Source: Minisyncoccota bacterium
GTDB lineage: Bacteria > Patescibacteriota > Minisyncoccia > Phycocordibacterales > UBA9973
Assembly: GCA_041666225.1 (NCBI GenBank)
Contig: JBAYHJ010000001.1
Location: forward strand, 1,881-65,880
DNA: 64,000 bases
Reading direction: 5' to 3'
Shown: positions 1-33,950 of the stretch, in pieces
Numbering within the stretch: position 1 is the first letter of the stretch
Layout: each line of letters opens with the position of its first letter
Made by a program: the position numbers and the translations under genes
Notes under the pieces: generated by a model
What the model was told of the DNA's origin: nothing
What the model saw: the letters and a program-made list of their open reading frames with translations, nothing else
Database searches by the model: none

Positions 1-153
1 ATTAAGTCATCCATACTAAGAACATTAATGGATGAATCCCGCGCTGAGTTAATATAACTTTTAACCTCAGTTCCATTTCCTAGAAAGATAGGGTCCTGTT
101 TAACTATTTCGCTAAATTCCTTGATTTTTAAATTTGTTTTCATCTTTTTTGGT
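1..153 (-). CDS. hypothetical protein, N-terminal part (gene continues beyond window start)
   Basis: ATG at 153-151 on minus strand; translation MKTNLKIKEFSEIVKQDPIFLGNGTEVKSY... open to window edge; not recognisable as rpsN/rpsH. Confidence 0.4.
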
Positions 154-157
154 TTTA

Positions 158-210
158 TTGGTTTTCACAAAAGATAAACATTTATCTCCTCTGAAAACCA
201 ATAAAACCAA
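158..210. promoter_or_regulatory. perfect 19-bp inverted repeat (ttggttttattggttttca / tgaaaaccaataaaaccaa) with inner palindrome gataaacatttatc, in 5' leader of the minus-strand gene at 1..153
   Basis: read directly from sequence; related half-site ttggttttcaca recurs at 42344-42356 immediately upstream of another minus-strand ATG. Confidence 0.5.
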
Positions 211-275
211 ATATCAAAGGACTTAATTTCTGGTGGTATTATATCACACAAATAGCCATTTTGTCAACCCATATT

Positions 276-301
276 AAAAACCCTTATTTCTAAGGGTTTT
301 T
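276..301. terminator. intrinsic terminator hairpin aaaaaccctta-tttc-taagggttttt downstream of rplE (bidirectional)
   Basis: perfect GC-containing stem flanked by A/T runs. Confidence 0.7.
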
Positions 302-315
302 AATATTTTTAATTT

Positions 316-855
316 TTATTTCTTAAATGGTACACCGATAAGTTCAAAGAACTCTGTTGCTTCGGCTTTGGTTTTGGCTGTAGTCACAATTGTGACCGCT
401 AGACCAAAGACGTCTTTTAATTCTTCGTCACCTGTTTCGGGAAAGATTGTGTGCTCTTTAATACTCATTGTTAGATTTCCAATATTATCAACAATTTTCT
501 TATCAATACCGCGGAAATCTTTCGTTCGAGGAATAGCCACATTTATTAATTTATCTAAAAATCCATACATCCGTGCACCACGAAGTGTCACCATGACACC
601 AACTGGGTCCCCTAAACGAATCTTGAAAGAAGCAATTGATTTCTTTGCACTTTTTGTGGCAGGGCGTTGACCTGTAATCTTTGCAAGTCTTTCAAGCACA
701 AGTTTATTGTGATCTTTGTTTCTCTTTAGCCCTGAACCAGTACCACTTGCAATCACTACTTTCACCAAGCGAGGTGAAGCCATTACGTTTTTGTAGCCGT
801 ATTTACTCTTGAGTGCTGTATATGCTTTTTTTTCTTTTTGTTTAACTGTTTCCAT
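316..855 (-). CDS. rplE: 50S ribosomal protein L5
   Basis: 179 aa; L5 signature region (LERLAKITGQRP...GFLDKLINVAIPR); position after rplX. Confidence 0.9.
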   Translation of the reverse strand: METVKQKEKKAYTALKSKYGYKNVMASPRLVKVVIASGTGSGLKRNKDHNKLVLERLAKITGQRPATKSAKKSIASFKIRLGDPVGVMVTLRGARMYGFLDKLINVAIPRTKDFRGIDKKIVDNIGNLTMSIKEHTIFPETGDEELKDVFGLAVTIVTTAKTKAEATEFFELIGVPFKK

Positions 856-899
856 TGTATTTTAAATTCGTAATTCTTAATTCTTAATTCGTAATTACT

Positions 900-1118
900 T
901 TAGTCTCTTTTAGCAACATTTGATACGTGTATTGGCATTGCCATTTCTAAAATCTGACTGATATCGCCTTTCTTTTTAGCCTTGTGAGCTTTCTTTCTCA
1001 TGTTTACACCTTCAACAACCACTTTATTTTCGGCTGGCATAGCTCTTAGAACTTTACCTTTTTTGCCTTTGTTTGCTCCAGCGATAACTATTACATTGTC
1101 TCCTTTCTTAATCTTCAT
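900..1118 (-). CDS. rplX: 50S ribosomal protein L24
   Basis: 72 aa, KOW motif MKIKKGDNVIVIAG; operon position. Confidence 0.9.
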   Translation of the reverse strand: MKIKKGDNVIVIAGANKGKKGKVLRAMPAENKVVVEGVNMRKKAHKAKKKGDISQILEMAMPIHVSNVAKRD

Positions 1119-1160
1119 AGTATTTTAATTCTTAATTCGTAATTATTAATTCGTAATTAC

Positions 1161-1532
1161 TTATATAACTTCTTGGGCTAATGAAATAATTTTCTGATAC
1201 CCACGCTCTGCAAGCTCTCTTGGGATAGGACCAAATACGCGACCTCCTTTTGGATCAAGTTTATCTTTTTCGAGAATAACTACAGCATTGTCATCGAAAC
1301 GAATATAAGAACCATCTTTTCGGCGATATGACTTCACTGTTCGAACAACAACCGCTTGACAGACATCCTTTTTCTTAATTCCTTTTCTTGGTTCTGCTAC
1401 TTTAACAGATAAGATAACTTTATCACCAATACCAGCATAACGACGACGAGATGATCCAAGCACCTTGAAAATCTTTCCGATCTTTCCTCCGGCGTTGTCT
1501 GTGATATTTACAATTGTTCCATCTTGAATCAT
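1161..1532 (-). CDS. rplN: 50S ribosomal protein L14
   Basis: 123 aa MIQDGTIVNITDNAGGK... typical L14. Confidence 0.9.
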   Translation of the reverse strand: MIQDGTIVNITDNAGGKIGKIFKVLGSSRRRYAGIGDKVILSVKVAEPRKGIKKKDVCQAVVVRTVKSYRRKDGSYIRFDDNAVVILEKDKLDPKGGRVFGPIPRELAERGYQKIISLAQEVI

Positions 1533-1539
1533 ATAATTA

Positions 1540-1785
1540 TTATGCTATTACTTTAAAATGCTTATCTTTTGAAATAGGTTTTGTTTCTTCTATTTCGACA
1601 ACATCCCCTATCTTTTTAATATTCTCTTCATCATGTGCCTTGTATTTCTTTGTTTTCTTTATACGTTTACCATACTTTTTGTGTTCAACGAAGCGAGTAA
1701 CCTTAACAACAATAGTTTTATCCATTTTGTCTGAAGTAACTACTCCTTTTAAAATTTTATTTGTTTTTTTGATTTTTGTTTCCAT
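1540..1785 (-). CDS. rpsQ: 30S ribosomal protein S17
   Basis: 81 aa; S17 OB-fold pattern ([17 protein letters not shown]...YKAHDEEN). Confidence 0.85.
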
Positions 1786-1795
1786 AATGATTAGT

Positions 1796-1872
1796 TAATC
1801 AAGTTATAAAGTTTTTAAAGTTGAAAGTAATTTCTTCTTTATAACTTTATGAACTTTTTACTTTATAACTTC
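1796..1872. repeat. MITE-like ~75-bp element copy 1 with terminal inverted repeats AGTTATAAAG / CTTTATAACT; occupies the rplP-rpsQ spacer where rpmC (L29) normally lies
   Basis: near-identical copies at 3438..3511 and 10861..10949, all in same orientation. Confidence 0.7.
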
Positions 1873-1873
1873 G

Positions 1874-2290
1874 TTATCTAGCAACTACGCGAGTAGTAAC
1901 TGGTAATTTTGTTCCTGCTTTACGAAGAGCTTCTTTGGCTGTCGCTTCAGGAACACCATCAACTTCAAATATTATTCGGCCTGGGCGAACATCTAGACAG
2001 TATCCTTGTGGATCTCCTTTACCTTTTCCCATTCCTACTTCAGCTGGCTTTGCTGTAAAAGGTCGGTCAGGAAAAATTCTAATCCACATTCTACCAGTCT
2101 TTCCAAGTGTTCTTGAAGTAACCTTACGTGCTGATTCTATCTGATTTGCGCGGACACGTCCACCACTTGTGGCTTTGAGGCCATATGATCCAAAAGCCAC
2201 TGTAATACCTCGAGTATCAGGAGTAACCTTAGTCATATCAGTACGACCTGTTTGCCATTTTCTAAATTTTACTTTCTTTGGTGTTAACAT
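1874..2290 (-). CDS. rplP: 50S ribosomal protein L16
   Basis: 138 aa MLTPKKVKFRKWQTGR... canonical L16. Confidence 0.9.
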   Translation of the reverse strand: MLTPKKVKFRKWQTGRTDMTKVTPDTRGITVAFGSYGLKATSGGRVRANQIESARKVTSRTLGKTGRMWIRIFPDRPFTAKPAEVGMGKGKGDPQGYCLDVRPGRIIFEVDGVPEATAKEALRKAGTKLPVTTRVVAR

Positions 2291-2298
2291 AAAATATT

Positions 2299-2991
2299 TT
2301 AATTACTTTTATCATTTCTACTTGTTGAAGTAGCAGTAGGAGCAGAAAAGACTTCTCCACGATATATCCAAACTTTAATACCAATATCTCCATAACTCAT
2401 ATGAGCCTTTTCACGAGCAAAATCAACATCAGCGCGGAATGTTTGAAGTGGAATTGAACCACGTTTGATTTGTTCACTTCGAGCAATTTCGGCTCCACCC
2501 AAACGGCCTCCCAAGTAAATACGCGCTCCTTTTACTCCTCGAGCTGACATTACTTTTTCAATAGCTTGTTTGATAACACGACGATATGGTAGACGTTTTT
2601 CAAGACCTTCGGCAATAGAGCAAGCCACAATAGCTGCATCAGCATCTGGATTTGTAACTTCAAGAATATCAAATTTAAAATCTTCAGGAATTGCAATACC
2701 TTTTCGATTTAGGGTGTTTACCATCTCAGTCTTTAGTTTACTAACACCTTCACCTGAACGGCCAATAATCATACCTGGACGAGAAGTATAAACCATTATT
2801 CGTGTAGCTTTTACACTTCTTTCAATTTCAATACGAGAAATATAAAAACCTCGTAGTTTCTTTGTTAAAAATTCACGAATAACTACATCACTTTGTAAAA
2901 GAGTTTTGTATTTTTTATCAGCAAACCAGCGTGATTTCCAATCGCGGAGGGTTACTAGTCTATGAGCATATGGGTGAACTACTTTTGACAT
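2299..2991 (-). CDS. rpsC: 30S ribosomal protein S3
   Basis: 230 aa, KH + S3 C-terminal domain (GRLGGAEIARSE). Confidence 0.9.
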   Translation of the reverse strand: MSKVVHPYAHRLVTLRDWKSRWFADKKYKTLLQSDVVIREFLTKKLRGFYISRIEIERSVKATRIMVYTSRPGMIIGRSGEGVSKLKTEMVNTLNRKGIAIPEDFKFDILEVTNPDADAAIVACSIAEGLEKRLPYRRVIKQAIEKVMSARGVKGARIYLGGRLGGAEIARSEQIKRGSIPLQTFRADVDFAREKAHMSYGDIGIKVWIYRGEVFSAPTATSTSRNDKSN

Positions 2992-2997
2992 AAATAA

Positions 2998-3429
2998 TTA
3001 AGCTTTTGTTTCTTTAGTTTTTTCCGACTTTTTAACTTTTGATTTAATTGCTTTTTTTTCTACTTTTTCAGCCTTTTTAACAGTTTTTACTTTTTTAGCT
3101 TCAACTCCTTTTTCTATAAGAGTAAGCATGACATGACTTGTACGCTTATTTATACGAGATGCCGATCCACGAGCACGAGGCATACTACGCTTTAAAACGA
3201 TACCCTTATTTACTGTTACATTTTCAACATATAGGCCTTCCACTGCAATACCAGCTTGTTTTGCGTTTGCAATAGCTGAAGCGAGAAGTGTCTGGACTGG
3301 GCCAGAGGCTCTCTTTGGTAATGTATCAAGAATTAGAATTGCATCAGCAACCCTTTTGCTTTTGATTAGTTCCGCTACAAGGCGAACCTTGCGGGGGGAC
3401 TGTCTGTAGTTTTTAAGAAATGCTTTCAT
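2998..3429 (-). CDS. rplV: 50S ribosomal protein L22 with Lys-rich C-terminal extension
   Basis: 143 aa; L22 core MKAFLKNYRQSPRKVRLVAELIK. Confidence 0.85.
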   Translation of the reverse strand: MKAFLKNYRQSPRKVRLVAELIKSKRVADAILILDTLPKRASGPVQTLLASAIANAKQAGIAVEGLYVENVTVNKGIVLKRSMPRARGSASRINKRTSHVMLTLIEKGVEAKKVKTVKKAEKVEKKAIKSKVKKSEKTKETKA

Positions 3430-3437
3430 GATTTAGT

Positions 3438-3511
3438 TTATCAAGTTGTAAAGTTTTTAAAGTTGAAAGTAAATTCTTCTTTATAACTTTATGAACTTTC
3501 TACTTTATAAC
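3438..3511. repeat. MITE-like element copy 2 (rpsS-rplV spacer)
   Basis: tatcaagttgtaaagtttttaaagttgaaagtaaattcttctttataactttatgaactttctactttataactt, ~90% identical to 1796..1872. Confidence 0.7.
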
Positions 3512-3856
3512 TTACTTCTTCTTGGAATCAACTGCGGCCTTGGCTGATTTTGATGCGGTAATTTCGGCTTCTTTCTTCTTCATTTCTAATTCTTTCTGCA
3601 TCTTACCTCCGTGTCGGACAAATTTTCGTGTAAGTGAGAATTCTCCAAGTCTGTGTCCTACCATATCTTCACTTACTAGTACTTCTACGTGGGTCTTTCC
3701 GTTGTGAACACCAAAGACAAATCCAACCATTTCTGGGGAGATTTGACAGGCTCTTGCCCAAGTCTTAATCATCCCTGTTTCAATAGGTTTTTTACCGGCA
3801 ATCTTTTTTAATAGCCTTTCATCAACGTATGGACCTTTTTTAAGTGATCGTGTCAT
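3512..3856 (-). CDS. rpsS: 30S ribosomal protein S19 with Lys-rich C-terminal tail
   Basis: 114 aa; S19 core [15 protein letters not shown]. Confidence 0.85.
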
Positions 3857-3931
3857 ATTGTATAAATATAAATAAGCTCTTTTGAGCTCGTGGAATTCAT
3901 GTTAACAAATATAAGATAGAGAGTCAAGTGT

Positions 3932-4342
3932 TTACAAAAACACTACTATTTTCGGCAAAAAGATTATTATCCCTATAACACCAGCCACTATTACAGATAT
4001 TAGAACTGCTCCTGCAGCTACGTCTTTTGTGTCTTTTGCATAGGGGTGAAAAGTAGGAGAAGTTAAGTCAATATCAATCTCAAAAGCGGTATTTAGTGCT
4101 TCAGCAATAATGACTAGACCTATCGAGAAAATTATCATTACCCATTCAATATTTGATATTTTCAAAATAAAACCTAAATAAATAGCCAATATCGCAAAAA
4201 ATATATGAGCCCAGGAGTTGTGAGTAGACCGAATAAAAATACCCAATCCTCGCCATGCATTTCTTGTGCTTTTCAATCTAGCCACAATTGAAAATCTTTT
4301 CTTCTCTGATATTTTTTTATCCATTTTCCTATTATACATCAA
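3932..4342 (-). CDS. dgkA: diacylglycerol/undecaprenol kinase (DgkA family) membrane protein
   Basis: 136 aa, 3 TM helices, DgkA motifs RNAWRGL...HNSWAH and AEALNTAFEIDIDL. Confidence 0.7.
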   Translation of the reverse strand: MMYNRKMDKKISEKKRFSIVARLKSTRNAWRGLGIFIRSTHNSWAHIFFAILAIYLGFILKISNIEWVMIIFSIGLVIIAEALNTAFEIDIDLTSPTFHPYAKDTKDVAAGAVLISVIVAGVIGIIIFLPKIVVFL

Positions 4343-4384
4343 AAAAGCCCCAACCGTAGTCGGGGTATTGATATTTTAATGGGA

Positions 4385-5131
4385 TTAAGTTATTCTTTTT
4401 TTTCTAGCTGGTGTAAGACGATTAACTGTCCACACGATTAAACTTGCTATAATAATTCCAGCCGATCCGAAATAAAAAAAGAAAATGGAGGAAGGGATTA
4501 TTAAATAAAAGAACACAAACAACAAAGCAATAATCATTCCCCCTGATATTCGCCGGGCAATTTTCTCTATGTCGTCAAAAGAAAGAATTAAACAAGCATT
4601 TACAATTGGAATAGCAAGTATTATCCAACAAAATGTCACCAATGTTATATTTTCTTTTGGCGATCCAAAATATAACCACACTAATTCTATTACAGACAAT
4701 ACAATTAACATCGCTGCCAAAACAAGACTCCGCGTTGAATTGTTTTTAACAACAAACCCCCAATAAAGAAATATAATAAACAACACTACCCCAGCCATTG
4801 ATGAATCTCCCATTGAAGAAGAAATATCCTTAGCGAACTGAGTACTTACTGGTACATTTTTGTGAAGTTTTTCATTGTATAACAGCCCGGCGCCTTGTAC
4901 AGAATCTATCTTTAAATTGCCTTTATAATGAATAGATTCTTTGTGGAATAAAATGGTAAGCCCATTTTTGTAAGCTAGATCATTCTGTTCCGGAGTTGCG
5001 TCTTTGTAGGCAACTGAATCTGGAGTAATCGATTTATAACTCGATCCCTCCGATGAGGAAGACGTATTGTTTTTGAAGTATAAAAATACTCCCAAAGACA
5101 ATATCAGGGTAATTAAAAAAAGATTTTTCAT
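4385..5131 (-). CDS. membrane protein, signal peptide/N-terminal anchor plus C-terminal multi-TM domain
   Basis: 248 aa, hydrophobic N-terminus and 4-5 predicted TM segments. Confidence 0.55.
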   Translation of the reverse strand: MKNLFLITLILSLGVFLYFKNNTSSSSEGSSYKSITPDSVAYKDATPEQNDLAYKNGLTILFHKESIHYKGNLKIDSVQGAGLLYNEKLHKNVPVSTQFAKDISSSMGDSSMAGVVLFIIFLYWGFVVKNNSTRSLVLAAMLIVLSVIELVWLYFGSPKENITLVTFCWIILAIPIVNACLILSFDDIEKIARRISGGMIIALLFVFFYLIIPSSIFFFYFGSAGIIIASLIVWTVNRLTPARKKRIT

Positions 5132-5436
5132 GGTTTATTTTTTTAAAATGTTTGCCTTTAGATTACTCCTCATAAAACTTTTGTCAACCACATGATTTTG
5201 ATATATAATGAATTTAAATATTCTTTAAAAATTGTTTTTCTGTCAGACCGCACAAGGTTGAATCAGGTAAAAACTCTAACCAGAGCTTCGTGTCTTTGAC
5301 ACTTAAAGCTATCCTACTAACTGAATCCAAATTTTTTGGTTTCATAACACTTATCAAAGTATTGTCTTAATACTTTTGCTTAAACTAAAAACTTGTATAA
5401 GTATGAATGAAAAACTAAAAAGACAAAAAAGGGAAA

Positions 5437-5781
5437 TTGCACGGCTTCAAAAATAGAGCAGGTTGGAACGATGAACATCATATTAAAACACCTTGTTCAA
5501 GAGGTGGTGAAACAATCGATTCAAATTTACTTTTAATTGATGTCTACCGTCACGATGCGTGGCATTTACTTTTTAGTAATCAAACATTGCGCGAAATAAT
5601 TGCACACCTAAAAAACTACTGTAGCACTAAAGATTTTTTGCTTTCAGTTAACAATTACTATAAGCACCCTGCTTTTCGTTTACTATTTGGGAGTAAACCA
5701 CTAAACGAAATAATAGCATTACTACTAAGAATACAACATGCAAAAGATTCGCAACGAATTAGAATAAAACTAGCTGCATAA
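5437..5781 (+). CDS. hypothetical protein with internal duplicated motif (LLFSNQTLREIIAHL / LLFGSKPLNEIIALL); TTG start
   Basis: ORF-track entry begins at TTG; plausible -35/-10 (ttgtcaa..N17..tatataat) at ~5176-5210; hairpin terminator 5787-5816. Confidence 0.3.
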   Translation: MHGFKNRAGWNDEHHIKTPCSRGGETIDSNLLLIDVYRHDAWHLLFSNQTLREIIAHLKNYCSTKDFLLSVNNYYKHPAFRLLFGSKPLNEIIALLLRIQHAKDSQRIRIKLAA

Positions 5782-5819
5782 AATTAAAAGTCGTTCTGGA
5801 AACAGAACGACTTTTTAGT

Positions 5820-6548
5820 TTACCGAAGCCTTGCTTCGGTAGGTTCTATTTCTTCTATCTCTAACCATTCAAATATTTCTTTCTTGAAAATATTTGGGTC
5901 CTCAAAATAATCAGGGAATTTCTCTTTATTTAAAATCAAATTTTCTGGTCTTTTAGATAAAAGATAATCATTATAACTACTCCATTTGTATGAATTAAGA
6001 AAATTAATAGCTTCTGTTTTATTATTTATCCCTACTTCCTTCCAGTCAGATTGAATCAATTTAATAGGATTTAAGTGTATATATGAAAATAAATATTTTG
6101 CTTGTATTTCATCTTCAATATGAATAGATTTAAATTTACCTTCAAATAAAGACCCTGTTCTGTTATGTTTTTTATTAAAATATTTTGCATATGCGGTACA
6201 GAGTTTTCCCATAAATTCAGTTATATTATTCCTCTCTTCATCTTTCCCATTAGACCTACCGAAGCCTTGCTTCGGTAAAGCTATTAAATACAAGTGGAAA
6301 TGGTTGGGCATCAGTACCCATGCACCAATAGCTACTAACTGGTCCCCCCTTTCAAAATCCCAAGCACTTATTTTGGGTTGAATGATATCATCTTTAAAAT
6401 TAATTCCTTTGGTTGAATTACAAAGAAATAAAAGCTTGATAAAGCGATCTCTATCTTCATCATCAAGAAAGATTATTTGTTTATTGTTTCCTCTATTGTA
6501 AATATGATAATATTCACCATCCACAAGTGGAACTTTTCTTAAAGACAT
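5820..6548 (-). CDS. REP-associated tyrosine transposase (RAYT, IS200/IS605 TnpA-like HuH-Y1), copy 1
   Basis: 242 aa; N-terminal YHIYNRGNNKQIIF, HuH motif LMPNHFHLYL, C-terminal WSSY...Y motif; flanked and interrupted by REP1 palindromes. Confidence 0.8.
   Translation of the reverse strand: MSLRKVPLVDGEYYHIYNRGNNKQIIFLDDEDRDRFIKLLFLCNSTKGINFKDDIIQPKISAWDFERGDQLVAIGAWVLMPNHFHLYLIALPKQGFGRSNGKDEERNNITEFMGKLCTAYAKYFNKKHNRTGSLFEGKFKSIHIEDEIQAKYLFSYIHLNPIKLIQSDWKEVGINNKTEAINFLNSYKWSSYNDYLLSKRPENLILNKEKFPDYFEDPNIFKKEIFEWLEIEEIEPTEARLR
5821..5841. repeat. REP1 palindrome taccgaagccttgcttcggta (copy a)
   Basis: perfect 8-bp arms; copies at 6256..6276, 6573..6593, 24612..24632. Confidence 0.8.
6256..6276. 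repeat. REP1 palindrome (copy b), located in-frame inside the RAYT-1 ORF (translates LPKQGFGRS)
   Basis: sequence identity to other REP1 copies. Confidence 0.8.
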
Positions 6549-6572
6549 ATATTACATTATACTACAAAGGTT

Positions 6573-6593
6573 TACCGAAGCAAGGCTTCGGTG
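6573..6593. repeat. REP1 palindrome (copy c, loop inverted: taccgaagcaaggcttcggtg)
   Basis: sequence. Confidence 0.75.
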
Positions 6594-6641
6594 GATATCT
6601 CGTTTCCCATGATTTTTTATTAAGTTAATTTTAATACCTTA

Positions 6642-6671
6642 ATAATACCCCCCCCCGAAAAATGAAGTCAG
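6642..6671 (-). promoter_or_regulatory. putative sigma70-like promoter with 9-nt poly-G in spacer (minus strand: ctgact-N18 incl. G9-tattat) upstream of RAYT-1
   Basis: C9 tract at 6648..6656 on plus strand; same architecture at 7748..7777, 23865..23895, 25464..25494. Confidence 0.45.
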
Positions 6672-6677
6672 CACATC

Positions 6678-6703
6678 AAAAAATACCCTTGCGGGTATTT
6701 TTT
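6678..6703. terminator. hairpin terminator aaaaaataccc-ttgc-gggtatttttt (duplicate of the rplB terminator at 7825..7851)
   Basis: sequence. Confidence 0.65.
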
Positions 6704-6760
6704 GATGATAGATTTTATATTTTTTTCTAAAATTATTTTGCTTTTCCAACTTTTCGGCGG

Positions 6761-6893
6761 GAGACAATCCACATGTTTGAGTATTTCTTTGGTGTTCTTG
6801 TCTTCTGTCCTTTTCCTGTTGGTTTACCCCACATACTTTTGGCTCGGCGTAGTCCGCGTCCTTGGCGTCCTTCACCTCCGCCGTGGAAACTCG
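6761..6893 (-). pseudogene. duplicated 3' fragment of rplB (encodes ...GGGEGRQGRGLRRAKSMWGKPTGKGQKTRTPKKYSNMWIVSRRK), no start codon
   Basis: near-identical to 7984..8116 of the intact rplB; the overlapping ORF-track entry 6639..6944 is in a different frame and judged spurious. Confidence 0.75.
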
Positions 6894-7016
6894 CAATAAC
6901 GGTTCATTAGAATTCCTTAATATATTATGAGATAAAACAAGCAAAAACGGTTATTTTAGAAAGATTACAAACAAAAAGCAACCACCTTAATCACAGTTAC
7001 ACTAAGATTATATTAA

Positions 7017-7745
7017 TTAATATTTATGTTTATTTTTTTTATTGGCAAGATCACCACGTAAATTTTCTATTAAATAAGTTGATTTGCCTGATTTTTCATT
7101 ATTTTTTTCGTATTTTATTGCTAATTTATCAAACATCTCTTCATTTTCGTCATCTACTGCTTTATAAAGTGCCCTGGAAATATATTTGTCTTCTAAGTGT
7201 AAATGAGCATTTTCAAGAGACCATGTTCTTTCAATTAAATTTTTACCAACAGCTTCATCGAGAATATTTTTTACTTTCCTTTCATCAAATTTTATACCAA
7301 GTTCAATTGCCCTTTCTGCCCAGCAATATAAATTAAACGGTGTTTTATAATCATGTCCCTCCTTTTCTTTTTTATAGAGTTCAATAAAATCATTAATATA
7401 TCCCAATATTTCAATAGGATCATTTACTCTATATTCTTTTGATTCTTTTATTACTTCTAGTAAAAAAGCGTCAACGTCCTCACTTTTTAACTGACCTACT
7501 TTTTCTTGAGTTCCATCTTTAATAATCTTACTTTTTTCATTAAATTCTCTATTTTCTATCTCTGCCTCATCTCGAACATTTTCAGATTCTTGAGCAAGAT
7601 TATTAAGCTCAAAATAAGCCTCCCTTGCATCTTTCCCCCCCGCCTCAATTTTTTCTTGAGTAGCTATTGTTCTTTTATTTAAATCCTCTGCATTAGTAAA
7701 ATTTTCCATATAAATATTCAAAAATATTATTAATAATATACACAT
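7017..7745 (-). CDS. hypothetical acidic/Lys-rich protein (likely true start MENFTNAEDL at ~7711)
   Basis: 242-aa ORF; driven by poly-G promoter 7748..7777; contains an internal G7 tract at ~7626-7632. Confidence 0.55.
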   Translation of the reverse strand: MCILLIIFLNIYMENFTNAEDLNKRTIATQEKIEAGGKDAREAYFELNNLAQESENVRDEAEIENREFNEKSKIIKDGTQEKVGQLKSEDVDAFLLEVIKESKEYRVNDPIEILGYINDFIELYKKEKEGHDYKTPFNLYCWAERAIELGIKFDERKVKNILDEAVGKNLIERTWSLENAHLHLEDKYISRALYKAVDDENEEMFDKLAIKYEKNNEKSGKSTYLIENLRGDLANKKNKHKY

Positions 7746-7747
7746 CT

Positions 7748-7777
7748 ATAGTACCCCCCCCAGACATACATTGTCAA
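7748..7777 (-). promoter_or_regulatory. putative poly-G spacer promoter (minus strand ttgaca-N18 incl. G8-tactat)
   Basis: C8 tract 7754..7761 on plus strand. Confidence 0.45.
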
Positions 7778-7824
7778 TAAAGATAAAAATATAAAAAACT
7801 ATCAAACCAACTTTTTTAAAAAAC

Positions 7825-7851
7825 AAAAAATACCCTTTCGGGTATTTTTTG
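7825..7851. terminator. hairpin terminator downstream of rplB (aaaaaataccc-tttc-gggtatttttt)
   Basis: sequence. Confidence 0.65.
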
Positions 7852-7956
7852 TTGATAGAGTTTTTTATTTTTAAGGCTATTTTGCTTTTCCCTGCCCGCC
7901 CTCGTGTACTCGGGAGCAGGCGGGCAACTTTTCGTTCTATTTGATATGACTAAATA

Positions 7957-8799
7957 TTATTTAGCCTTACCTACCTTCCTTCGAGAGACAATCCACATGT
8001 TTGAGTATTTCTTTGGTGTTCTTGTCTTCTGTCCTTTTCCTGTTGGTTTACCCCACATACTTTTGGCTCGGCGTAGTCCGCGTCCTTGGCGTCCTTCACC
8101 TCCACCGTGTGGATGGTCAACTGGGTTCATGGCTGTACCACGAACTGTTGGGCGAATTCCTTTCCATCGTGAACGTCCTGCTTTTCCAAAGTTTTGAAGT
8201 TTGTATTCACTGTTTGAAACTTCACCAATACATGCCCAGGCATTTTCTGAAACTTTTCGAACTTCAGTTGATGGCATTTTGATATTTGTATACCCAAGGT
8301 CATTGGCAACAACTTGTCCAAATGTACCTGCGGAACGAGCCAATTTTGCTCCATTACCAGCTTTAATCTCTACGTTATACACAAATGTTCCAACTGGAAT
8401 TATTTTAAGAGGTAAACGATTTCCAACTGCAAGTGGAGCTGTTTCGGAAACTATAAATTTATCTCCAACTTTCATTGATTTAGGTACAACCACGTATCTT
8501 TTTTCTCCGTCAGCGTAGCAAGCTAAACTGATGAAGGCATTACGATTTGGATCATATTCTATTGAAGTTATTTTGGCAGGAATATCGTGCTTGTTGTACA
8601 TGAAATCGATTTCACGATAAAGACGCTTATGTCCACCCCCTTTATGGCGAGTAGTGATACGTCCCTGATTATTTCTTCCAACAGATCTCTTAAAACCTTT
8701 TGTTAAAGATTTTTCTGGAGTACTTGTCGTCAACACATTACGGTATGTTACCGTAGTTTGGTGACGCTTTGATGGAGTTGTAGGTCTATATGTTTTCAT
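7957..8799 (-). CDS. rplB: 50S ribosomal protein L2
   Basis: 280 aa; L2 signature (HPHGGGEGR, RNNQGRITTRHKGGGHKR). Confidence 0.92.
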   Translation of the reverse strand: MKTYRPTTPSKRHQTTVTYRNVLTTSTPEKSLTKGFKRSVGRNNQGRITTRHKGGGHKRLYREIDFMYNKHDIPAKITSIEYDPNRNAFISLACYADGEKRYVVVPKSMKVGDKFIVSETAPLAVGNRLPLKIIPVGTFVYNVEIKAGNGAKLARSAGTFGQVVANDLGYTNIKMPSTEVRKVSENAWACIGEVSNSEYKLQNFGKAGRSRWKGIRPTVRGTAMNPVDHPHGGGEGRQGRGLRRAKSMWGKPTGKGQKTRTPKKYSNMWIVSRRKVGKAK

Positions 8800-10860: not shown

Positions 10861-10949
10861 CTTAGTTATAAAGTTTGTAAAGTTGAAAGTTTGTAAAGCA
10901 AATGCATTTTTAATCTACTTTATAACTTTATGAACTTTATGAACTTTCT
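10861..10949. repeat. MITE-like element copy 3 (tuf-rpsJ spacer), with extra tatgaactt repeat
   Basis: ttagttataaagtttgtaaagttgaaagt...ctactttataactttatgaactttatgaactttctact. Confidence 0.65.
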
Positions 10950-18872: not shown

Positions 18873-18896
18873 TGTTGGAAGTCGGACTTCCAACAT
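18873..18896. repeat. REP2 palindrome tgttggaagtcggacttccaaca
   Basis: copies at 19529..19557, 19773..19800, 58654..58680, 61013..61035; degenerate half-copies at 18632-18650 and 18683-18700. Confidence 0.8.
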
Positions 18897-18900
18897 TTTG

Positions 18901-18996
18901 TTAACTTCCAACTTAACTTCCAACTTAACTTCCAACTTAACTTCCAACTTAACTTCCAACTTAACTTCCAACTTAACTTCCAACTTAACTTCCAAC
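18901..18996. repeat. tandem repeat, 12-nt unit ttaacttccaac x8 (derived from REP2 half-site)
   Basis: perfect 8 tandem units; produces the spurious EVKL-repeat ORF 18810..18995. Confidence 0.9.
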
Positions 18997-19024
18997 CTTT
19001 AACTTTCCATTTATTTATTCTTAT

Positions 19025-23300: not shown

Positions 23301-23329
23301 TTAATTTAAAAATTAATTAAATAGATAAT

Positions 23330-23400: not shown

Positions 23401-23802
23401 TTAACCTTTCTTATTCATAAATTTATATACTATATCAATTTGTTCTCTTAACTTTTTACCTTCTTCTGGATTCATTATTTCAGCTGCTCTCACAAAAATT
23501 TCCATATTCTTATATTGAGATATCCACTCCCTATTATTCAAGAGATGATCCTTCACGGATCCAGGTTGTCCTGAGCCGGCTTTTCCTTCTAATATTTCTT
23601 TGGAATTATAAAACAACTTTGTTTTATAACTATTAAAATTACGTTCATAAAGTCTTGAATCTTTTTTATAAACCTCAATCATATTTAAGGTTTCTTTTTC
23701 TGCATTATCCATTATTTCTAAATACGCAGGACTAACATCATTACTCTCCTCTTTTTTACTATCACCCTCATTGTTATTTTGAACTTTATCAAATTGTCCC
23801 AT
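23401..23802 (-). CDS. hypothetical acidic protein
   Basis: 133 aa; immediately downstream of poly-G promoter 23865..23895. Confidence 0.5.
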   Translation of the reverse strand: MGQFDKVQNNNEGDSKKEESNDVSPAYLEIMDNAEKETLNMIEVYKKDSRLYERNFNSYKTKLFYNSKEILEGKAGSGQPGSVKDHLLNNREWISQYKNMEIFVRAAEIMNPEEGKKLREQIDIVYKFMNKKG

Positions 23803-23864
23803 AAATTTTATATTTTAATCCGCCTCAGCAGATAAGTTAATAATGCAAACTTTCTAATACCCTC

Positions 23865-23895
23865 ATTCTACCCCCCCCCTCATATGAGGTGTCAA
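23865..23895 (-). promoter_or_regulatory. putative poly-G spacer promoter (minus strand ttgaca-N19 incl. G9-tagaat)
   Basis: C9 at 23871..23879; ~90-nt block 23803..23895 is ~90% identical to 25402..25494. Confidence 0.5.
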
Positions 23896-24611: not shown

Positions 24612-24632
24612 CACCGAAGCAAGGCTTCGGTA
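24612..24632. repeat. REP1 palindrome (copy d) abutting the hppA 3' fragment
   Basis: caccgaagcaaggcttcggta. Confidence 0.8.
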
Positions 24633-24635
24633 AAT

Positions 24636-24737
24636 TACAAAGATACCGCAGGACCCGCAATCAATCCAATGATTAAAATATTAAATATCATTGCTCTCAT
24701 TATCGTTCCGATCTTGGTTGCAATTTGGTTTAAATAA
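24636..24737 (+). pseudogene. orphan diverged copy of hppA 3' end (encodes [33 protein letters not shown])
   Basis: ~78% nt identity to 23193..23300, differences mostly synonymous; followed by hairpin terminator 24758..24796. Confidence 0.75.
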
Positions 24738-24757
24738 AATCTAATCGAATTATCAAC

Positions 24758-24798: not shown

Positions 24799-25401
24799 TT
24801 ATTTTTCCCCATGGGGAAGTTCTTCAATTGCCTGAGGTCCATCCCAAGCAAAATGCAGATATTTATTTTCTATTTTTTCTTTTAGGGCAAAAGATAAATA
24901 CAAGTTAAACCCTTTTTTGACTGAATCTTGTTCAATTCTTTCTTCTCTATTTTGAATAGAAGTAGAAATATTTTCTGGCCTCTGATTTTGACTCAAATTA
25001 TAAAGAACTGCCTTATCTACATCAGCAACAAAATTAATTTTTTCTAGTTCTTCTTTACTCAACTGATTAACGAATTCTTTAACTATTTTTGGATCTTTTA
25101 TAATTAGAGATTGATATCGACCTCCATTTTTTACATCATTTTCCCAACTTTTATCTTCTTTGTTTACAGGAAATTCTTCTAGAAAAAGATTTTTAAGACT
25201 TTCGACTTTTTCATCTGGAACATAAGAAACTTCTCTGTCTATAAAATCTGCATCTTCATCATTACCGTGATAATCCACAGGTAAAAACCAAGTGTATTTA
25301 TAATTTTCAATTAAATCACTAACCACTTTTCTTATTTTTTGTTTTTCGACAGTATTTTCATCTTTTTTTACTGCTTCGTTTTTATTTAATCCTTCATTCA
25401 T
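24799..25401 (-). CDS. hypothetical acidic protein
   Basis: 200 aa; preceded by poly-G promoter 25464..25494. Confidence 0.5.
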   Translation of the reverse strand: MNEGLNKNEAVKKDENTVEKQKIRKVVSDLIENYKYTWFLPVDYHGNDEDADFIDREVSYVPDEKVESLKNLFLEEFPVNKEDKSWENDVKNGGRYQSLIIKDPKIVKEFVNQLSKEELEKINFVADVDKAVLYNLSQNQRPENISTSIQNREERIEQDSVKKGFNLYLSFALKEKIENKYLHFAWDGPQAIEELPHGEK

Positions 25402-25463
25402 AAATTTTATATTTTAATCTGCCTCAACAGATAGTTAATAATGCAAACTTTTCTAATACCCTC

Positions 25464-25494
25464 ATTCTACCCCCCCCCTCATATAACCTGTCAA
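25464..25494 (-). promoter_or_regulatory. putative poly-G spacer promoter (ttgaca-N19 incl. G9-tagaat), paralog of 23865..23895
   Basis: C9 at 25470..25478. Confidence 0.5.
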
Positions 25495-32241: not shown

Positions 32242-32350
32242 CTTTCTGCCCCGTTCCCAGGGACTTTTTTTAGTTAGTTAAAATTGTATTTGAATTCCCA
32301 TCTCTAATATCTAAAGTAAATATCAAAGATGAGAATTCAAATTTAACTAA
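32226..32350. repeat. ~125-bp direct repeat copy 1 (ccccgttcccagggactttttttagtt...gaattcccatctctaatatctaaagtaaatatcaaagatgagaattcaaat...)
   Basis: copy 2 at 33822..33950, ~88% identical; contains imperfect hairpin gaattcccatc...gatgagaattc. Confidence 0.8.
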
Positions 32351-32536: not shown

Positions 32537-33553
32537 TTACGACTGTGGCTTGTCATAGGCTCCAGCGAAGCCTCGGTTGGCATCCCCATAAGGCTGATGC
32601 AAACCATTTTGGCTTGCCCACCCGTTTGGGTAGGTCGGTCGGCCCTCAACCATGAAGACCTCACCCAAGAAGTCAGCCACGACTTCCTTGGTGCCCGACA
32701 AGTTAACCTTGTCGGGGAACCGTTTATCCCCCTTTGCCATATAAGGGGTACCGGTCATTACACCGGCCTCAATCGTGAAAGGGATATTCCCCAATTCACG
32801 AATATCGGCAACCCGCTTGCCACCAAGCAGAACGGTTGCCGGAGGATTATTCAGTATATGAAGGGCTTCCTCAATGCCCTTCATAGCATCTGATTCAGAT
32901 GAAACATTTTCGCGTTTCATCAGTTCTGGCAGACGCATAACCAGAACTTCTTCGGCTGTTACACCAGGGCAAAGCCCGGCGTAAGCAGCCGAAAGGCAAT
33001 GATCGGCGGCTGCAATAACGCGGTCTTCCTGGGTTGCCTCTATCCCCAGGAAATTCAGGAGTTGTCCGAGACTCGATGCCTCGAAAAACTCACCTGCTGG
33101 CTTGCCAAAACCAGCGTCGCCAGGGTTATGGTGGTCGCATCTTGCAACCACTTTCAACCCCTGGGCAGCAGTTGGAGCGCATTCAAAAAGAATGCAGGTG
33201 GTCTTCTCATAGCGGACCTGCCCCGGATCCATTATGAACCCATCTGCTTTGTAGGCAGTCATGGGATTGCATATTACGCCACCCATGGTCGCGGTGGCGG
33301 TTTGTATTCTGTACTCGTCAGCAATCTGGCGAGCTTTTTGCTCCTCGATGTCAGGAGCACCAAAAATAATTGTGAGGTAGGATAAATCCCTACCTCCACA
33401 ATTTGGACACCGGTTACCATCCCGATGCCCATGGAATAGGTCACCCTGATGGTAACCCATTTTAATTAATTCCTCGTCAGTGACGGGAATTGACTTGGCA
33501 TAAAGCCCAGTCCAAAAACATGAAGGGCAGTACACTGCCCAATCTTTTTTCAT
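32537..33553 (-). CDS. hypothetical protein with N-terminal CxxC...CxxC zinc ribbon and DHH-like motif; GC-rich (~55%) gene
   Basis: 338 aa; CPSC...CPNCGG; ...VARCDHHNPGDAG; strong compositional contrast with flanks. Confidence 0.6.
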   Translation of the reverse strand: MKKDWAVYCPSCFWTGLYAKSIPVTDEELIKMGYHQGDLFHGHRDGNRCPNCGGRDLSYLTIIFGAPDIEEQKARQIADEYRIQTATATMGGVICNPMTAYKADGFIMDPGQVRYEKTTCILFECAPTAAQGLKVVARCDHHNPGDAGFGKPAGEFFEASSLGQLLNFLGIEATQEDRVIAAADHCLSAAYAGLCPGVTAEEVLVMRLPELMKRENVSSESDAMKGIEEALHILNNPPATVLLGGKRVADIRELGNIPFTIEAGVMTGTPYMAKGDKRFPDKVNLSGTKEVVADFLGEVFMVEGRPTYPNGWASQNGLHQPYGDANRGFAGAYDKPQS

Positions 33554-33821: not shown

Positions 33822-33950
33822 ATTTTTTTTCTTCCATTTTCTTGCCCCGTTTCCAGGGACTTTTTTTAAGTTAAATTTAAGTTTGAATTCCCATCTCCAA
33901 TATCTAAAATAAATATCAAAGATGAGAATTCAAATTATTTAACTAAAAAA
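33822..33950. repeat. ~125-bp direct repeat copy 2
   Basis: see 32226..32350. Confidence 0.8.

What the first reader, a model, noticed from the sequence alone, without database searches (positions are those of the whole stretch)
6678..8116. Direct duplication of the rplB 3' portion plus its terminator, flanking a poly-G-promoter cassette inside the ribosomal operon
Segment 6678..6893 is a near-exact copy of 7822..8116: the terminator hairpin plus the last ~45 codons of L2, with two internal deletions including the final 8 codons and stop. The two copies flank the hypothetical gene 7017..7745 and its poly-G promoter. REP1 (6573..6593) and RAYT-1 lie just beyond. This is the same flank-duplication signature as at hppA, here at the 3' end of an essential ribosomal gene.
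Basis: seen in the sequence. Interest (0 to 1): 0.7.

Follow-up and report, generated by a model that had tools for sequence, protein, structure and literature searches.

The report
Displaced rplB 3' end flanking cassette
In this ultra-small (Patescibacteria) bacterium, a 1.1-kb piece of DNA carrying one unknown gene went in at the end of the essential ribosomal gene rplB, bringing its own copy of the gene's last codons and pushing the old gene end downstream as a dead fragment; this is a recombination scar of a known general kind, found here in an unusual place.

Summary
The repeat is real. A 119-nt exact match (6761-6879 = 7985-8103) sits inside about 230 nt of homology that also covers the terminator. 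Four assemblies share the structure.

Copy A is not deleted. It still encodes the last 50 residues of L2 plus the stop. Its last 9 codons differ from the live gene at 9 sites, all synonymous.

Copy B, the live rplB end, carries two insertions. One is 49 nt: a recoded tail, a stop and a 22-nt spacer. The other is a 34-nt GC hairpin that splits an older, dead tail. Another species (L007) has the same "state B" end without any duplication. Its 95%-identical relative L006 has the simple "state A" end.

The repeats bracket a TTGACA-N18-TACTAT promoter with G8 in its spacer and a 230-aa all-helical orphan gene.

Among 80 relatives, the rplB-rpsS gap runs from 68 to 8556 nt. None has the cassette or the 50-codon duplicate. 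Several have inserts bracketed by duplicated rplB terminators.

Best reading: incoming DNA anchored by homology in the rplB 3' end displaced the native 3' end. No integrase lies between the repeats. Interest is moderate.

The parts
7957..8799 (-). rplB (ribosomal protein L2), 280 aa, intact
   Evidence: ORF. Pfam Ribosomal_L2_N and L2_C, both full length. TIGR01171 rplB_bact scores 377 bits against a cutoff of 174.
7985..8103 (-). Copy B core: a 119-nt exact repeat inside the live rplB (codons for GGGEGRQ...NMWIVS)
   Evidence: Longest exact match between the two copies; alignment.
8104..8133 (-). Part of live rplB that matches the degenerate 5' edge of copy A
   Evidence: In the alignment, homology fades after CACCTCC and ends at GGTTCAT.
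7957..7986 (-). Tail B: TCT CGA AGG AAG GTA GGT AAG GCT AAA TAA. This is the functional recoded tail SRRKVGKAK*. It differs from tail A at 9 of 30 nt, all synonymous, and resembles the natural tail of L008.
7935..7956 (-). 22-nt spacer TATTTAGTCATATCAAATAGAA after the stop codon. It is unique in the window and pairs with the end of tail B in the RNA fold. L007 has it with an indel and two substitutions.
7877..7934 (-). Older dead tail CGAAAAGTT / GGAAAAGCAAAATAG, split by a 34-nt GC-rich hairpin at 7892-7925
   Evidence: The hairpin occurs once in the window. L007 has the same structure with one substitution. L005 has a shorter hairpin at the same site. RNA fold.
7822..7862 (-). Terminator B: a 14-bp stem, a GAAA loop and a U-run, with the conserved 'ctctatcaac' flank
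   Evidence: (D17).
7748..7777 (-). Promoter-like site TTGACA-18-TACTAT with G8 (7754-7761) in the spacer. It is the best consensus match in 5300-8300.
7017..7709 (-). Cassette gene, 230 aa (P0001), all-alpha, with no known family. The N-terminal ~60 aa and the 5'UTR are shared with proteins that have unrelated C-termini. The upstream ATG at 7745 lies under or upstream of the -10 box.
6911..7016 (-). 3' UTR of the cassette gene. It has no terminator of its own, and its end is the novel junction with copy A.
   Evidence: No terminator-like site was found here. Sequence. The junction is reproduced in L094.
6886..6910 (-). Degenerate 5' edge of copy A. It is scrambled and frameshifted relative to rplB, with TAA and TGA stops in the L2 frame.
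6733..6885 (-). Copy A: a displaced rplB 3' fragment. It has 50 codons identical in protein to L2 residues 231-280, plus TAA, and no in-frame start. The core is 6761-6879. Tail A (6733-6762) is the state-A allele.
6674..6732 (-). 3' UTR and terminator A. The stem and flank are identical to those of L008. It now also terminates the cassette transcript.
6642..6671 (-). Promoter-like site CTGACT-18-TATTAT with G9 (6648-6656), upstream of the RAYT-like gene
5817..6596 (-). RAYT-like gene (5820..6548) flanked by inverted REP hairpins (5817-5845 and 6570-6596). L036 has the same unit directly after its rplB terminator.
   Evidence: (I5, I25).

Best explanation
This is a recombination scar of the '3'-end displacement' type. 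Shown: the ancestral order in this clade is rplB - terminator - (variable genes) - dagK - rpsS, and the stretch after rplB is an insertion hotspot. Inferred: a DNA fragment from a related lineage entered the cell. It carried, in order, the last part of rplB in its 'state B' form, its terminator, a poly-G promoter and one orphan gene. It paired with the resident rplB through the highly conserved last ~150 nt, which acted as a homologous anchor. Its far end was joined non-homologously about 155-180 nt upstream of the resident stop codon. The alternative is that the fragment was a circle and integrated by a single crossover. Either way, the live rplB now ends in the incoming tail and terminator (copy B). 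The resident 3' end (copy A, 'state A', 50 codons plus its terminator) was pushed 1.2 kb downstream. There it is a start-less fragment whose terminator now ends the cassette transcript. Both tails encode the same peptide, so L2 function never changed. The 119-nt identity between the copies has two possible sources: both may derive from the resident gene, or gene conversion may maintain it. Recombination between the repeats would remove the cassette and leave an intact rplB with tail A. Copy B's own 'new tail + 22 nt + old tail' arrangement is an older, smaller event of the same kind, into whose dead tail a GC hairpin later inserted.
For: (1) The two copies carry different alleles of the gene end. 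Tail A differs from tail B at 9 of 30 nt, all synonymous, and B has 49-nt and 34-nt insertions. (2) Both alleles exist on their own in other species. State A is in L002, L003 and L006. State B, with the same hairpin (1 substitution in 58 nt), is in L007, and a shorter version is in L005. L006 and L007 are 95.3% identical over 10.8 kb yet differ by exactly this indel. (3) The cassette is absent from all 80 relatives' rplB loci. Its protein has no full-length relative in 5.8 billion or in 1.84 billion proteins. Its GC content is 26-29% against 37-44% for rplB. (4) The locus is a hotspot. The rplB-rpsS gap is about 126 nt in most distant relatives but 538-8556 nt in nearly all closer ones, with dagK as the only constant gene. 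(5) Other species show smaller versions of the same pattern. In L036 an insert (RAYT-like gene plus a peptidase-like ORF) is bracketed by 55-nt terminator repeats. L003, L047 and L077 also have inserts bracketed by duplicated rplB terminators, and L080 has an independent new-tail/old-tail pair. (6) In L036 the RAYT-like gene follows the rplB terminator directly, as it would here without the cassette. (7) rplB itself is mosaic. Nucleotides 11-100 are closest to L002/L003 (92%). Nucleotides 640-815 are closest to L005-L007 (98-100%, against 83-87% for the others). This shows recombination within rplB. (8) The cassette gene has no terminator of its own and relies on terminator A. (9) hppA shows the same signature, with a 78%-identical 3' fragment that still reads as an hppA C-terminus. 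(10) Published models exist for the general process: HFIR-based displacement in T6SS arrays and rhs (PMC5361080), merodiploids made by transformation (PMC3784515) and natural competence in Patescibacteria (PMC10633639 and PMC12455944).
Against: No conspecific genome without the cassette was found, so the 'before' state is inferred from other species. The direction of the event is not proven: copy A could be the import. A 119/119 identity next to a tail that is 30% divergent needs an extra assumption. That could be a crossover exactly at the tail boundary, a conspecific donor, or later gene conversion. Classical HFIR usually deletes recipient DNA rather than duplicating it, so a duplication needs a second template such as a sister chromatid. 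No microhomology could be assigned at the distal junction, because the edge (6886-6910) is scrambled. The enzymes involved are unknown.
Confidence: 0.6

Rival explanations
1. Copy A is the import, not the remnant. The resident locus was rplB(state B)-terminator B-promoter-orphan gene. A block consisting of an rplB 3' fragment, terminator A, REP and the RAYT-like gene then arrived from a donor in which that gene abuts rplB. It arrived either by one-ended or rolling-circle capture through the HUH enzyme, or by recombination anchored further downstream.
For: In L036 the RAYT-like gene sits directly after rplB, so a donor with that arrangement exists. State-A lineages such as L006 have a core that differs from the window's at only 2 of 119 positions, so an imported copy could be near-identical. 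At hppA a REP abuts the 5' edge of the distal copy. HUH-type transposases are known to mobilise flanking DNA (my own knowledge of the IS91/ISCR families).
Against: The orphan gene would then have lost its own terminator, because none lies between its stop codon and copy A. No REP sits at the 5' edge of copy A. The RAYT-like gene of L036 is 78% identical in DNA, which is about the divergence of the neighbouring ribosomal genes (70-93%). That fits orthology at this position better than recent mobility. RAYTs are generally regarded as single-copy and non-mobile (my own knowledge).
Confidence: 0.13
2. This is a small integrase-less mobilisable cassette that uses the rplB 3' end or terminator as an attachment site. 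A site-specific recombinase encoded elsewhere inserts and excises it, and the repeats are attL and attR.
For: Direct repeats flank the insert. The incoming side supplies a functionally equivalent gene end, as tRNA- and gene-end-targeting integrative elements do. Several species have terminator-bracketed inserts at the same hotspot.
Against: No integrase lies between the repeats or in the 4-kb hotspot; the ORFs there have no Pfam, NCBIfam, PHROG or PADLOC recombinase hit. The extent of the repeats differs widely between species (36, 55 and about 230 nt), with no common crossover core. The repeats contain large heterologous indels. The hairpin motif was not found in JGI metagenome contigs.
Confidence: 0.12
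3. An ordinary local tandem duplication arose by slippage or unequal crossing-over within this genome, and the two copies then diverged.
For: The repeats are direct and 1.2 kb apart, with a 119-nt identical core.
Against: The cassette itself is not duplicated. The two tails are different alleles, each found intact in other species, so they cannot derive from each other after a recent duplication. Nine synonymous changes and no non-synonymous change in the tail, beside a 119-nt block with no change at all, do not fit post-duplication drift.
Confidence: 0.05
4. An assembly artefact that joins two strain variants.
For: All sources are short-read metagenome assemblies. The repeat core (119 nt) is close to read and k-mer length.
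Against: Four assemblies agree at 100% identity: the window, ENA k141_74169, JGI 3300037810 and Logan SRR6484324. L094 crosses the unique junction from the cassette 3'UTR through the scrambled edge into the copy A core. L001 (k = 141, longer than 119) spans both copies.
Confidence: 0.03

Closest known systems
C-terminal (3'-end) displacement in rhs, cdiA and T6SS effector-immunity arrays (Jackson et al. 2009, PMC2935791; Kirchberger et al. 2017, PMC5361080)
   Same: Incoming DNA carries a stretch of the conserved gene as an anchor, plus a new 3' part and new downstream genes. It enters at the conserved gene. The old 3' end is pushed downstream as an orphan that keeps a piece of the conserved sequence. 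Repeated events build arrays. The proposed mechanism is homology-facilitated illegitimate recombination.
   Different: The target here is an essential ribosomal protein gene, not a polymorphic toxin. The old and new ends encode the same peptide, so nothing is diversified in the target. The payload is a separate gene with its own promoter. There is no immunity gene logic.
Integrative elements that insert into the 3' end of tRNA, tmRNA or protein genes and restore the gene end from attP (my own knowledge)
   Same: Direct repeats flank the insert. The proximal copy is completed by element-borne sequence that is divergent in DNA but equivalent in function. The native end is left at the distal border.
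   Different: No integrase is present. The insert is only 1.1 kb with one gene. The repeats are long (about 230 nt), with internal heterologous indels and a scrambled edge rather than a short defined core.
Campbell-type single-crossover insertion and transformation-induced merodiploidy (Johnston et al. 2013, PMC3784515)
   Same: Homology-driven events generate direct duplications. For an essential gene they keep one intact copy beside an altered one. Recombination between the repeats can reverse them.
   Different: The events described there span 100-900 kb between IS-derived repeats. The duplicated segment here is about 0.2 kb and brackets foreign DNA.
Phase-variable promoters with a homopolymeric tract in the -35/-10 spacer (Neisseria porA/opc, Haemophilus hif, Mycoplasma vlp; my own knowledge)
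   Same: A G8-G10 run fills the promoter spacer next to the -10 box and gives an 18-19-nt spacer. Every G>=8 run in 1.37 Mb of related DNA has this context.
   Different: No length polymorphism was seen: the tract is G8 in all four assemblies. Switching is therefore untested. The library search found no paper linking Patescibacteria to phase variation in substance; the one paper holding both terms is unrelated.
Integron gene cassettes
   Same: Single-gene units are inserted one after another at one site, and older units are pushed back.
   Different: No intI gene and no attC-like recombination site were seen. The unit has its own promoter, and the repeats are copies of the host gene end and terminator.

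Membership tests
3'-end displacement scar (homology-anchored insertion of foreign DNA) | The proximal gene copy is intact, and its end comes from a different allele than the distal fragment | tested here: met
   rplB is full length. Tail B and tail A differ at 9 synonymous sites and by 49-nt and 34-nt indels.
3'-end displacement scar (homology-anchored insertion of foreign DNA) | The distal copy is a 5'-truncated, start-less fragment that keeps the native downstream context | tested here: met
   Copy A has 50 codons plus a stop, preceded by in-frame TAA and TGA, with no ATG, GTG or TTG in frame. It is followed by terminator A, REP and the RAYT-like gene, as after the intact rplB of L036.
3'-end displacement scar (homology-anchored insertion of foreign DNA) | The DNA between the copies is foreign to the lineage | tested here: met
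   It is absent from 80 relatives' loci. The protein is an orphan. GC content is lower. The donor is unknown.
3'-end displacement scar (homology-anchored insertion of foreign DNA) | An empty site exists in conspecific genomes | not testable with these tools
   Only contigs with the filled arrangement are on record for the exact L2, RAYT-like and cassette proteins. The best relative in the genome collection has 94% L2 identity.
3'-end displacement scar (homology-anchored insertion of foreign DNA) | The distal junction is illegitimate (microhomology only) | tested here: inconclusive
   The edge 6886-6910 is scrambled and frameshifted, with a possible 7-nt ATGAACC match. No clean breakpoint can be assigned.
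Site-specific integrative element (attL/attR) | A recombinase gene lies within or next to the element | tested here: not met
   The only ORF between the repeats has no family. The neighbours are a RAYT-like HUH protein, two orphans and dagK.
Site-specific integrative element (attL/attR) | A short identical core is shared by all insertions at the site | tested here: not met
   Repeat extents are 36 nt (L003), 55 nt (L036), 49-77 nt (L077, L047) and about 230 nt (window), with different left boundaries.
Simple tandem duplication | The whole unit, including the DNA between the repeat starts, is present twice, and the copies derive from each other | tested here: not met
   The cassette is present once. 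The tails are distinct alleles found separately in L006 and L007.
REP/RAYT system (for the neighbouring gene only) | A Y1 HUH transposase-like gene is flanked by inverted REP hairpins, and the same REP is dispersed in the genome | tested here: inconclusive
   REP hairpins lie at 5817-5845 and 6570-6596 in inverted orientation, with further copies at 6254-6293 and 24613-24642. NCBIfam REP_Tyr_transpos gives E = 6.6e-10 but 39 bits against a cutoff of 80. Pfam Y1_Tnp scores below its cutoff. There is no evidence that this gene made the duplication.
Phase-variable promoter | A homopolymeric tract lies in the -35/-10 spacer | tested here: met
   TTGACA-N10-G8-TACTAT at 7777-7748. Seven independent G>=8 tracts in the window and related loci have the same layout.
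Phase-variable promoter | Tract length varies within or between populations and changes expression | tested here: not met
   The tract is G8 in the window, L001, L093 and L094. These are consensus assemblies only. Read-level variation and expression cannot be tested here.
Group I/II intron or other self-splicing insert | Ribozyme structure | tested here: not met
   No Rfam match in 6600-8200 at E<=1.

The most novel reading that the evidence does not exclude
The repeats are not a passive scar but the working parts of an integrase-free mobile cassette. Small units made of a promoter and one variable gene would carry a copy of the last 100-200 nt, plus the terminator, of a highly conserved essential gene (rplB, hppA, perhaps atpG) as a built-in homology arm. 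Host recombination between the arms would loop the unit out as a circle. It would also let the unit insert by a single crossover into any related genome after DNA uptake. The essential gene would stay intact at every step, because the arm encodes a synonymous gene end. Poly-G promoters would then switch the cargo on and off. The near-identity of the rplB core across species (98-100%, against about 80% for the rest of the gene) would be a by-product of this traffic.
Probability: 0.15. Interest if true: 0.75.

Novelty: new variant of a known kind. Interest (0 to 1): 0.45.

Why it matters
This shows how a genome-reduced, uncultivated bacterium adds and shuffles accessory genes without known mobile-element enzymes. 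The ends of its most conserved genes serve as landing pads, and the gene end is re-supplied so that an essential ribosomal protein is never damaged.

It also marks the rplB-dagK-rpsS junction as a variable-gene hotspot inside the ribosomal protein cluster of Nomurabacteria-like Patescibacteria. That cluster is routinely used for phylogeny and binning, so mosaic rplB sequences and duplicated fragments there can mislead marker-gene analyses and gene callers. For example, a 101-aa 'hypothetical protein' is called across copy A.

The poly-G promoter architecture and the protein family with a conserved N-terminus and variable C-terminus point to switchable, fast-evolving functions. These are worth testing in the few cultivable relatives.

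Tried and rejected
- **Hairpin search.** An exact search for the GC hairpin (28 nt) in JGI metagenome contigs gave 0 hits. In the 81 loci the motif occurs only in L001 and, with one substitution, in L007.
- **Known RNAs.** Rfam at E<=1 over 5300-8300 found nothing between 6600 and 8200. This rejects an intron, ribozyme or riboswitch.
- **Cassette protein function.** Pfam, NCBIfam, PHROGs and PADLOC gave no hit. The AlphaFold2 model is all-alpha with pLDDT 71, and Foldseek against the PDB found nothing below E = 0.2. Function remains unknown.
- **Similar duplications elsewhere.** I searched for a 50-codon rplB fragment in 80 relatives by blastn self-comparison and by sensitive tblastn. Only the window's organism has one.
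- **A cassette-less arrangement.** Exact-protein look-ups of L2, the RAYT-like protein and the cassette protein found no such contig on record.
- **Context of N-terminal homologues.** Most contigs are 1.6 kb and uninformative. In L084 the homologue follows atpG by 14 nt, and the contig ends in a 12-nt match to the atpG tail. This is a weak hint only. L086-L090 showed no flanking duplication of a conserved gene end.
- **Rejected readings.** Simple tandem duplication, because the two ends are different alleles. Target-site duplication by a transposase, because the repeat is too long and heterologous. Assembly chimera, because four assemblies agree and one crosses the junction. Hairpin insertion into the live tail followed by a compensating duplication, because the +34-nt frameshift would wreck an essential protein first.
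Full report
**What is there.** All relevant genes are on the minus strand. The order is tuf, rpsJ, rplC, rplD, rplW, rplB (7957..8799), then about 4 kb of non-ribosomal DNA, then rpsS (3512..3856) and rplV. rplB is intact: 280 aa, both Pfam L2 domains full length, and TIGR01171 well above its cutoff.

- The repeat finder gives 6729-6885 vs 7953-8109 (157 nt, 93%) and 6677-6725 vs 7824-7872 (49 nt, 88%).
- The longest exact run is 119 nt, 6761-6879 = 7985-8103.
- The terminator motif AAAATACCCNNNNGGGTATTTT occurs only at these two places in 64 kb.

**Corrected anatomy.** The opposite holds.
- On the minus strand copy A reads ...AAC ATG TGG ATT GTC TCC CGC CGA AAA GTT GGA AAA GCA AAA TAA. Its 50 codons translate to exactly the last 50 residues of L2, followed by a stop.
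- The live gene ends ...GTC TCT CGA AGG AAG GTA GGT AAG GCT AAA TAA. This is the same peptide with 9 differences in 30 nt, all synonymous.
- After that stop, copy B continues with a 22-nt spacer (7935-7956, unique in the window).
- Next comes CGAAAAGTT, then a 34-nt GC-rich hairpin (7892-7925, unique), then GGAAAAGCAAAATAG, then the terminator.
- CGAAAAGTT plus GGAAAAGCAAAATA(A/G) is the tail of copy A. Copy B therefore holds a live recoded tail and, behind it, an older dead tail split by a hairpin.
- At its 5' edge (6886-6910) copy A is scrambled and frameshifted, with TAA and TGA in the L2 frame and no start codon.

**Between the copies.** Just downstream of terminator B lies the best sigma-70-like match in 5300-8300: TTGACA-18-TACTAT at 7777-7748, with G8 filling the spacer next to the -10 box.

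The ORF most likely starts at ATG 7709 (230 aa), for three reasons. ATG 7745 lies under or upstream of the -10 box. The public protein P0001 has 230 residues. Homologues start MENFT....

The protein has no Pfam, NCBIfam, PHROG or PADLOC family. It has no full-length relative in 5.8 billion proteins. A full HMMER scan of 1.84 billion representatives found 11 other proteins. Ten of them share only the first ~60-110 residues (31-70% identity over the matched stretch) and have unrelated C-terminal parts of very different length. The remaining one (P0011) matches only residues 128-224. The upstream UTR motif TATATTATTAATA is also conserved. The AlphaFold2 model is all-helical (pLDDT 71) with an N-terminal helical hairpin, and has no PDB neighbour.

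The gene has no terminator of its own. Its transcript would run through copy A to terminator A.

**Not an artefact.** Three other assemblies match the window.
- ENA contig L001 (MEGAHIT, k = 141) is identical to window 1..8670 and spans both copies.
- JGI contig L093 equals 6942..8621 at 100%.
- Logan contig L094 (SRR6484324) equals 6850..7851 at 100%, so it crosses the junction from the cassette into copy A.

**Comparative evidence.** A scan of one genome per species returned 80 rplB loci from Nomurabacteria/Paceibacterota-like Patescibacteria, with 70-94% L2 identity.

1. *Hotspot.* The rplB-rpsS distance is 68-221 nt in most of the more distant relatives. It is 538-8556 nt in all but one of the closer ones. 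dagK (49 loci) is the only constant gene in the gap, and 56 of the ORFs found there are singleton families. Nearly all closer relatives have the same conserved terminator, with its 'tctatcaacaaaaaa' flank, directly after rplB.
2. *Uniqueness.* None of the 80 has the cassette. None has a long rplB 3' duplicate.
3. *Both gene-end alleles exist elsewhere, singly.* State A (simple tail plus terminator) is in L002, L003 and L006. State B (recoded tail, spacer, split old tail with the same hairpin, 1 substitution in 58 nt) is in L007. L005 has a version with a shorter hairpin at the same site. L080 has an independent new-tail/old-tail pair.
4. *A discrete indel.* L006 and L007 are 95.3% identical over 10.8 kb up to the rplB tail and differ by exactly this indel. 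Comparing their printed tails by eye, L007's live tail is only about 73% identical to L006's. State B is therefore a transferable allele, not a local mutation. The window's tail B is close to the natural tail of L008. By eye, the spacer also resembles the start of a terminator flank. State B thus looks like an older, small joint of the same kind.
5. *Terminator-bracketed inserts in other species.* In L036 a RAYT-like gene plus a peptidase-like ORF lies between two 55-nt copies of the terminator, with the insertion point exactly after ...TTTTTTGTTG. L003, L047 and L077 are similar.
6. *Position of the RAYT-like gene.* The L036 gene is 78% identical in DNA to the window's and follows rplB directly, as the window's would if the cassette and copy B's extras were removed.
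7. *Mosaic rplB.* Nucleotides 11-100 are closest to L002/L003 (92%, against 77-80% for L006/L007). Nucleotides 640-815 are closest to L005-L007 (98-100%, against 83-87% for the others). Recombination therefore happens within rplB.

**Mechanism.** The two copies cannot be products of a plain local duplication, because their ends are different alleles with separate histories and the cassette is single. No recombinase lies between the repeats or in the hotspot. The repeat extents differ between species, with no shared core. This argues against a dedicated att system.

The best fit is homology-anchored insertion of foreign DNA.
- A fragment carrying rplB-3'(state B), its terminator, the promoter and the orphan gene paired with the resident rplB through its very conserved last ~150 nt.
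- Its other end joined about 155-180 nt upstream of the resident stop. Alternatively, a circular form integrated by one crossover.
- The resident end (state A plus terminator A) was displaced downstream.

Which steps are shown and which are inferred:
- Shown: the alleles, the hotspot, the foreignness of the insert, the mosaicism and the recurrence.
- Inferred: the direction of the event, the type of joint, and the reason for the 119-nt identity. That identity could come from both copies being of resident origin, from a conspecific donor, or from gene conversion limited by the flanking heterology.

The general process is described in the literature. It includes C-terminal displacement in rhs and in T6SS effector-immunity arrays, with HFIR proposed as the mechanism. 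It also includes merodiploids made by transformation. Patescibacteria are naturally competent and keep homologous recombination genes.

One consequence follows directly from the sequence. Recombination between the 119-nt cores would delete the cassette and leave a perfect rplB with tail A.

**The same signature elsewhere in the window.**
- The last ~100 nt of hppA (23202-23304) recur at 24636-24738 at 78% identity. The distal copy still reads as an hppA C-terminus in frame. Each copy is followed by a terminator and a convergent small gene driven by a TTGACA-N10-G9-TAGAAT promoter.
- A third gene (32537..33553) is bracketed by 76-nt hairpin-containing repeats.

**Verdict.** The feature is a recombination scar of a known general kind, in an unusual setting: an essential ribosomal gene, with a synonymous replacement of the gene end, in a Patescibacteria hotspot. 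The mechanism is inferred, not demonstrated.

Noticed in passing
window 3857-7956; loci L002-L081: The rplB-rpsS junction is a variable-gene hotspot in this clade. The gap runs from 68 to 8556 nt. dagK is the only constant gene (49 loci), and 56 ORFs in the gap are singleton families. The ancestral order appears to be rplB-terminator-dagK-rpsS.
   Followed up: partly
window 7754-7761, 6648-6656, 23871-23879, 25470-25478; L045 1847-1854; L048 14735-14744; L074 2672-2680: Every G>=8 run in the window plus 90 related loci (1.37 Mb) lies between a TTGACA-like -35 box and a TAnnnT -10 box, giving an 18-19-nt spacer. These are candidate phase-variable promoters in Patescibacteria. The paper library held no relevant report.
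   Followed up: partly
L003 10844-10935; L023 9730-9821; L029 5288-5379; L044 4816-4907: An ~85-nt element sits between the rplB stop and the terminator in four species. It has a conserved fold of 26 predicted pairs, 6 of them with compensatory changes, and no Rfam family. It is a candidate structured 3'UTR RNA or a small mobile element.
   Followed up: partly
window 23202-23304 vs 24636-24738; 23800-23895 vs 25399-25494: The hppA 3' end is duplicated at 78% identity, and the distal copy still reads as an hppA C-terminus. A REP abuts the distal copy. Each copy is followed by a terminator and a convergent small ORF (23401..23802; 24799..25401) with a G9 promoter.
   Followed up: partly
window 32268-32343 vs 33861-33936: 76-nt direct repeats (88%) that contain a hairpin bracket ORF 32537..33553 (-). 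This is possibly a third terminator-bracketed insert.
   Followed up: no
window 1791-1871, 3433-3513, 10864-10938: An ~81-nt intergenic repeat (95% between the first two copies) occurs within the ribosomal protein cluster: between rplP and rpsQ, between rpsS and rplV, and between tuf and rpsJ. It could be an internal promoter or an RNA-processing element. The 88-nt rplP-rpsQ gap leaves no room for rpmC (L29) at its usual place.
   Followed up: no
window 18877-19020; 18873, 19532, 19775, 58656, 61012: A tandem array of a 12-nt unit (TTAACTTCCAAC, about 9 copies) lies next to a second palindromic repeat family, TGTTGGAAGTCGGACTTCCAACA, which has five copies in the window.
   Followed up: no
window 7017-7709; P0002-P0012; L082-L090: The cassette protein belongs to a family with a conserved ~60-aa N-terminal helical hairpin (MENFTNAEDLNKRT..AGG..EAHFELNKLAEE.EN) and a conserved 5'UTR, but unrelated C-terminal parts of 185-495 aa. 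One member carries an NPPY methyltransferase-like motif. The layout resembles that of polymorphic effectors.
   Followed up: partly
L086 2877-2949, 4033-4105, 4751-4823, 6322-6394; L085 upstream of 836: Four direct copies of a 73-nt element separate single ORFs, including a member of the cassette family. The same element lies upstream of P0003 in another metagenome. This is an array-like organisation of promoter-bearing cassettes.
   Followed up: no
L084 5530-5545 and 6790-6808: A family member (P0004) starts 14 nt after atpG inside an ATP synthase operon. The contig ends with CATTAAATGTAAATG, which resembles the atpG tail CCTTAAATGTAAATTAG. This is a weak hint of the same gene-end duplication at a third conserved gene.
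   Followed up: partly
window 7957-8799 vs L002-L036: rplB is mosaic relative to related species. The 5' 100 nt are closest to L002/L003, and the 3' 175 nt are nearly identical to L005-L007. This matters for marker-gene phylogenies.
   Followed up: yes
window 6639-6944 (-): Gene callers predict a 101-aa hypothetical protein here (L001 3806-4111). It overlaps copy A in a different frame and is most likely spurious.
   Followed up: yes
L006 10871-10936; L007 10951-11012: In these two species the rplB terminator stem is interrupted by a ~40-nt insertion in its loop.
   Followed up: no
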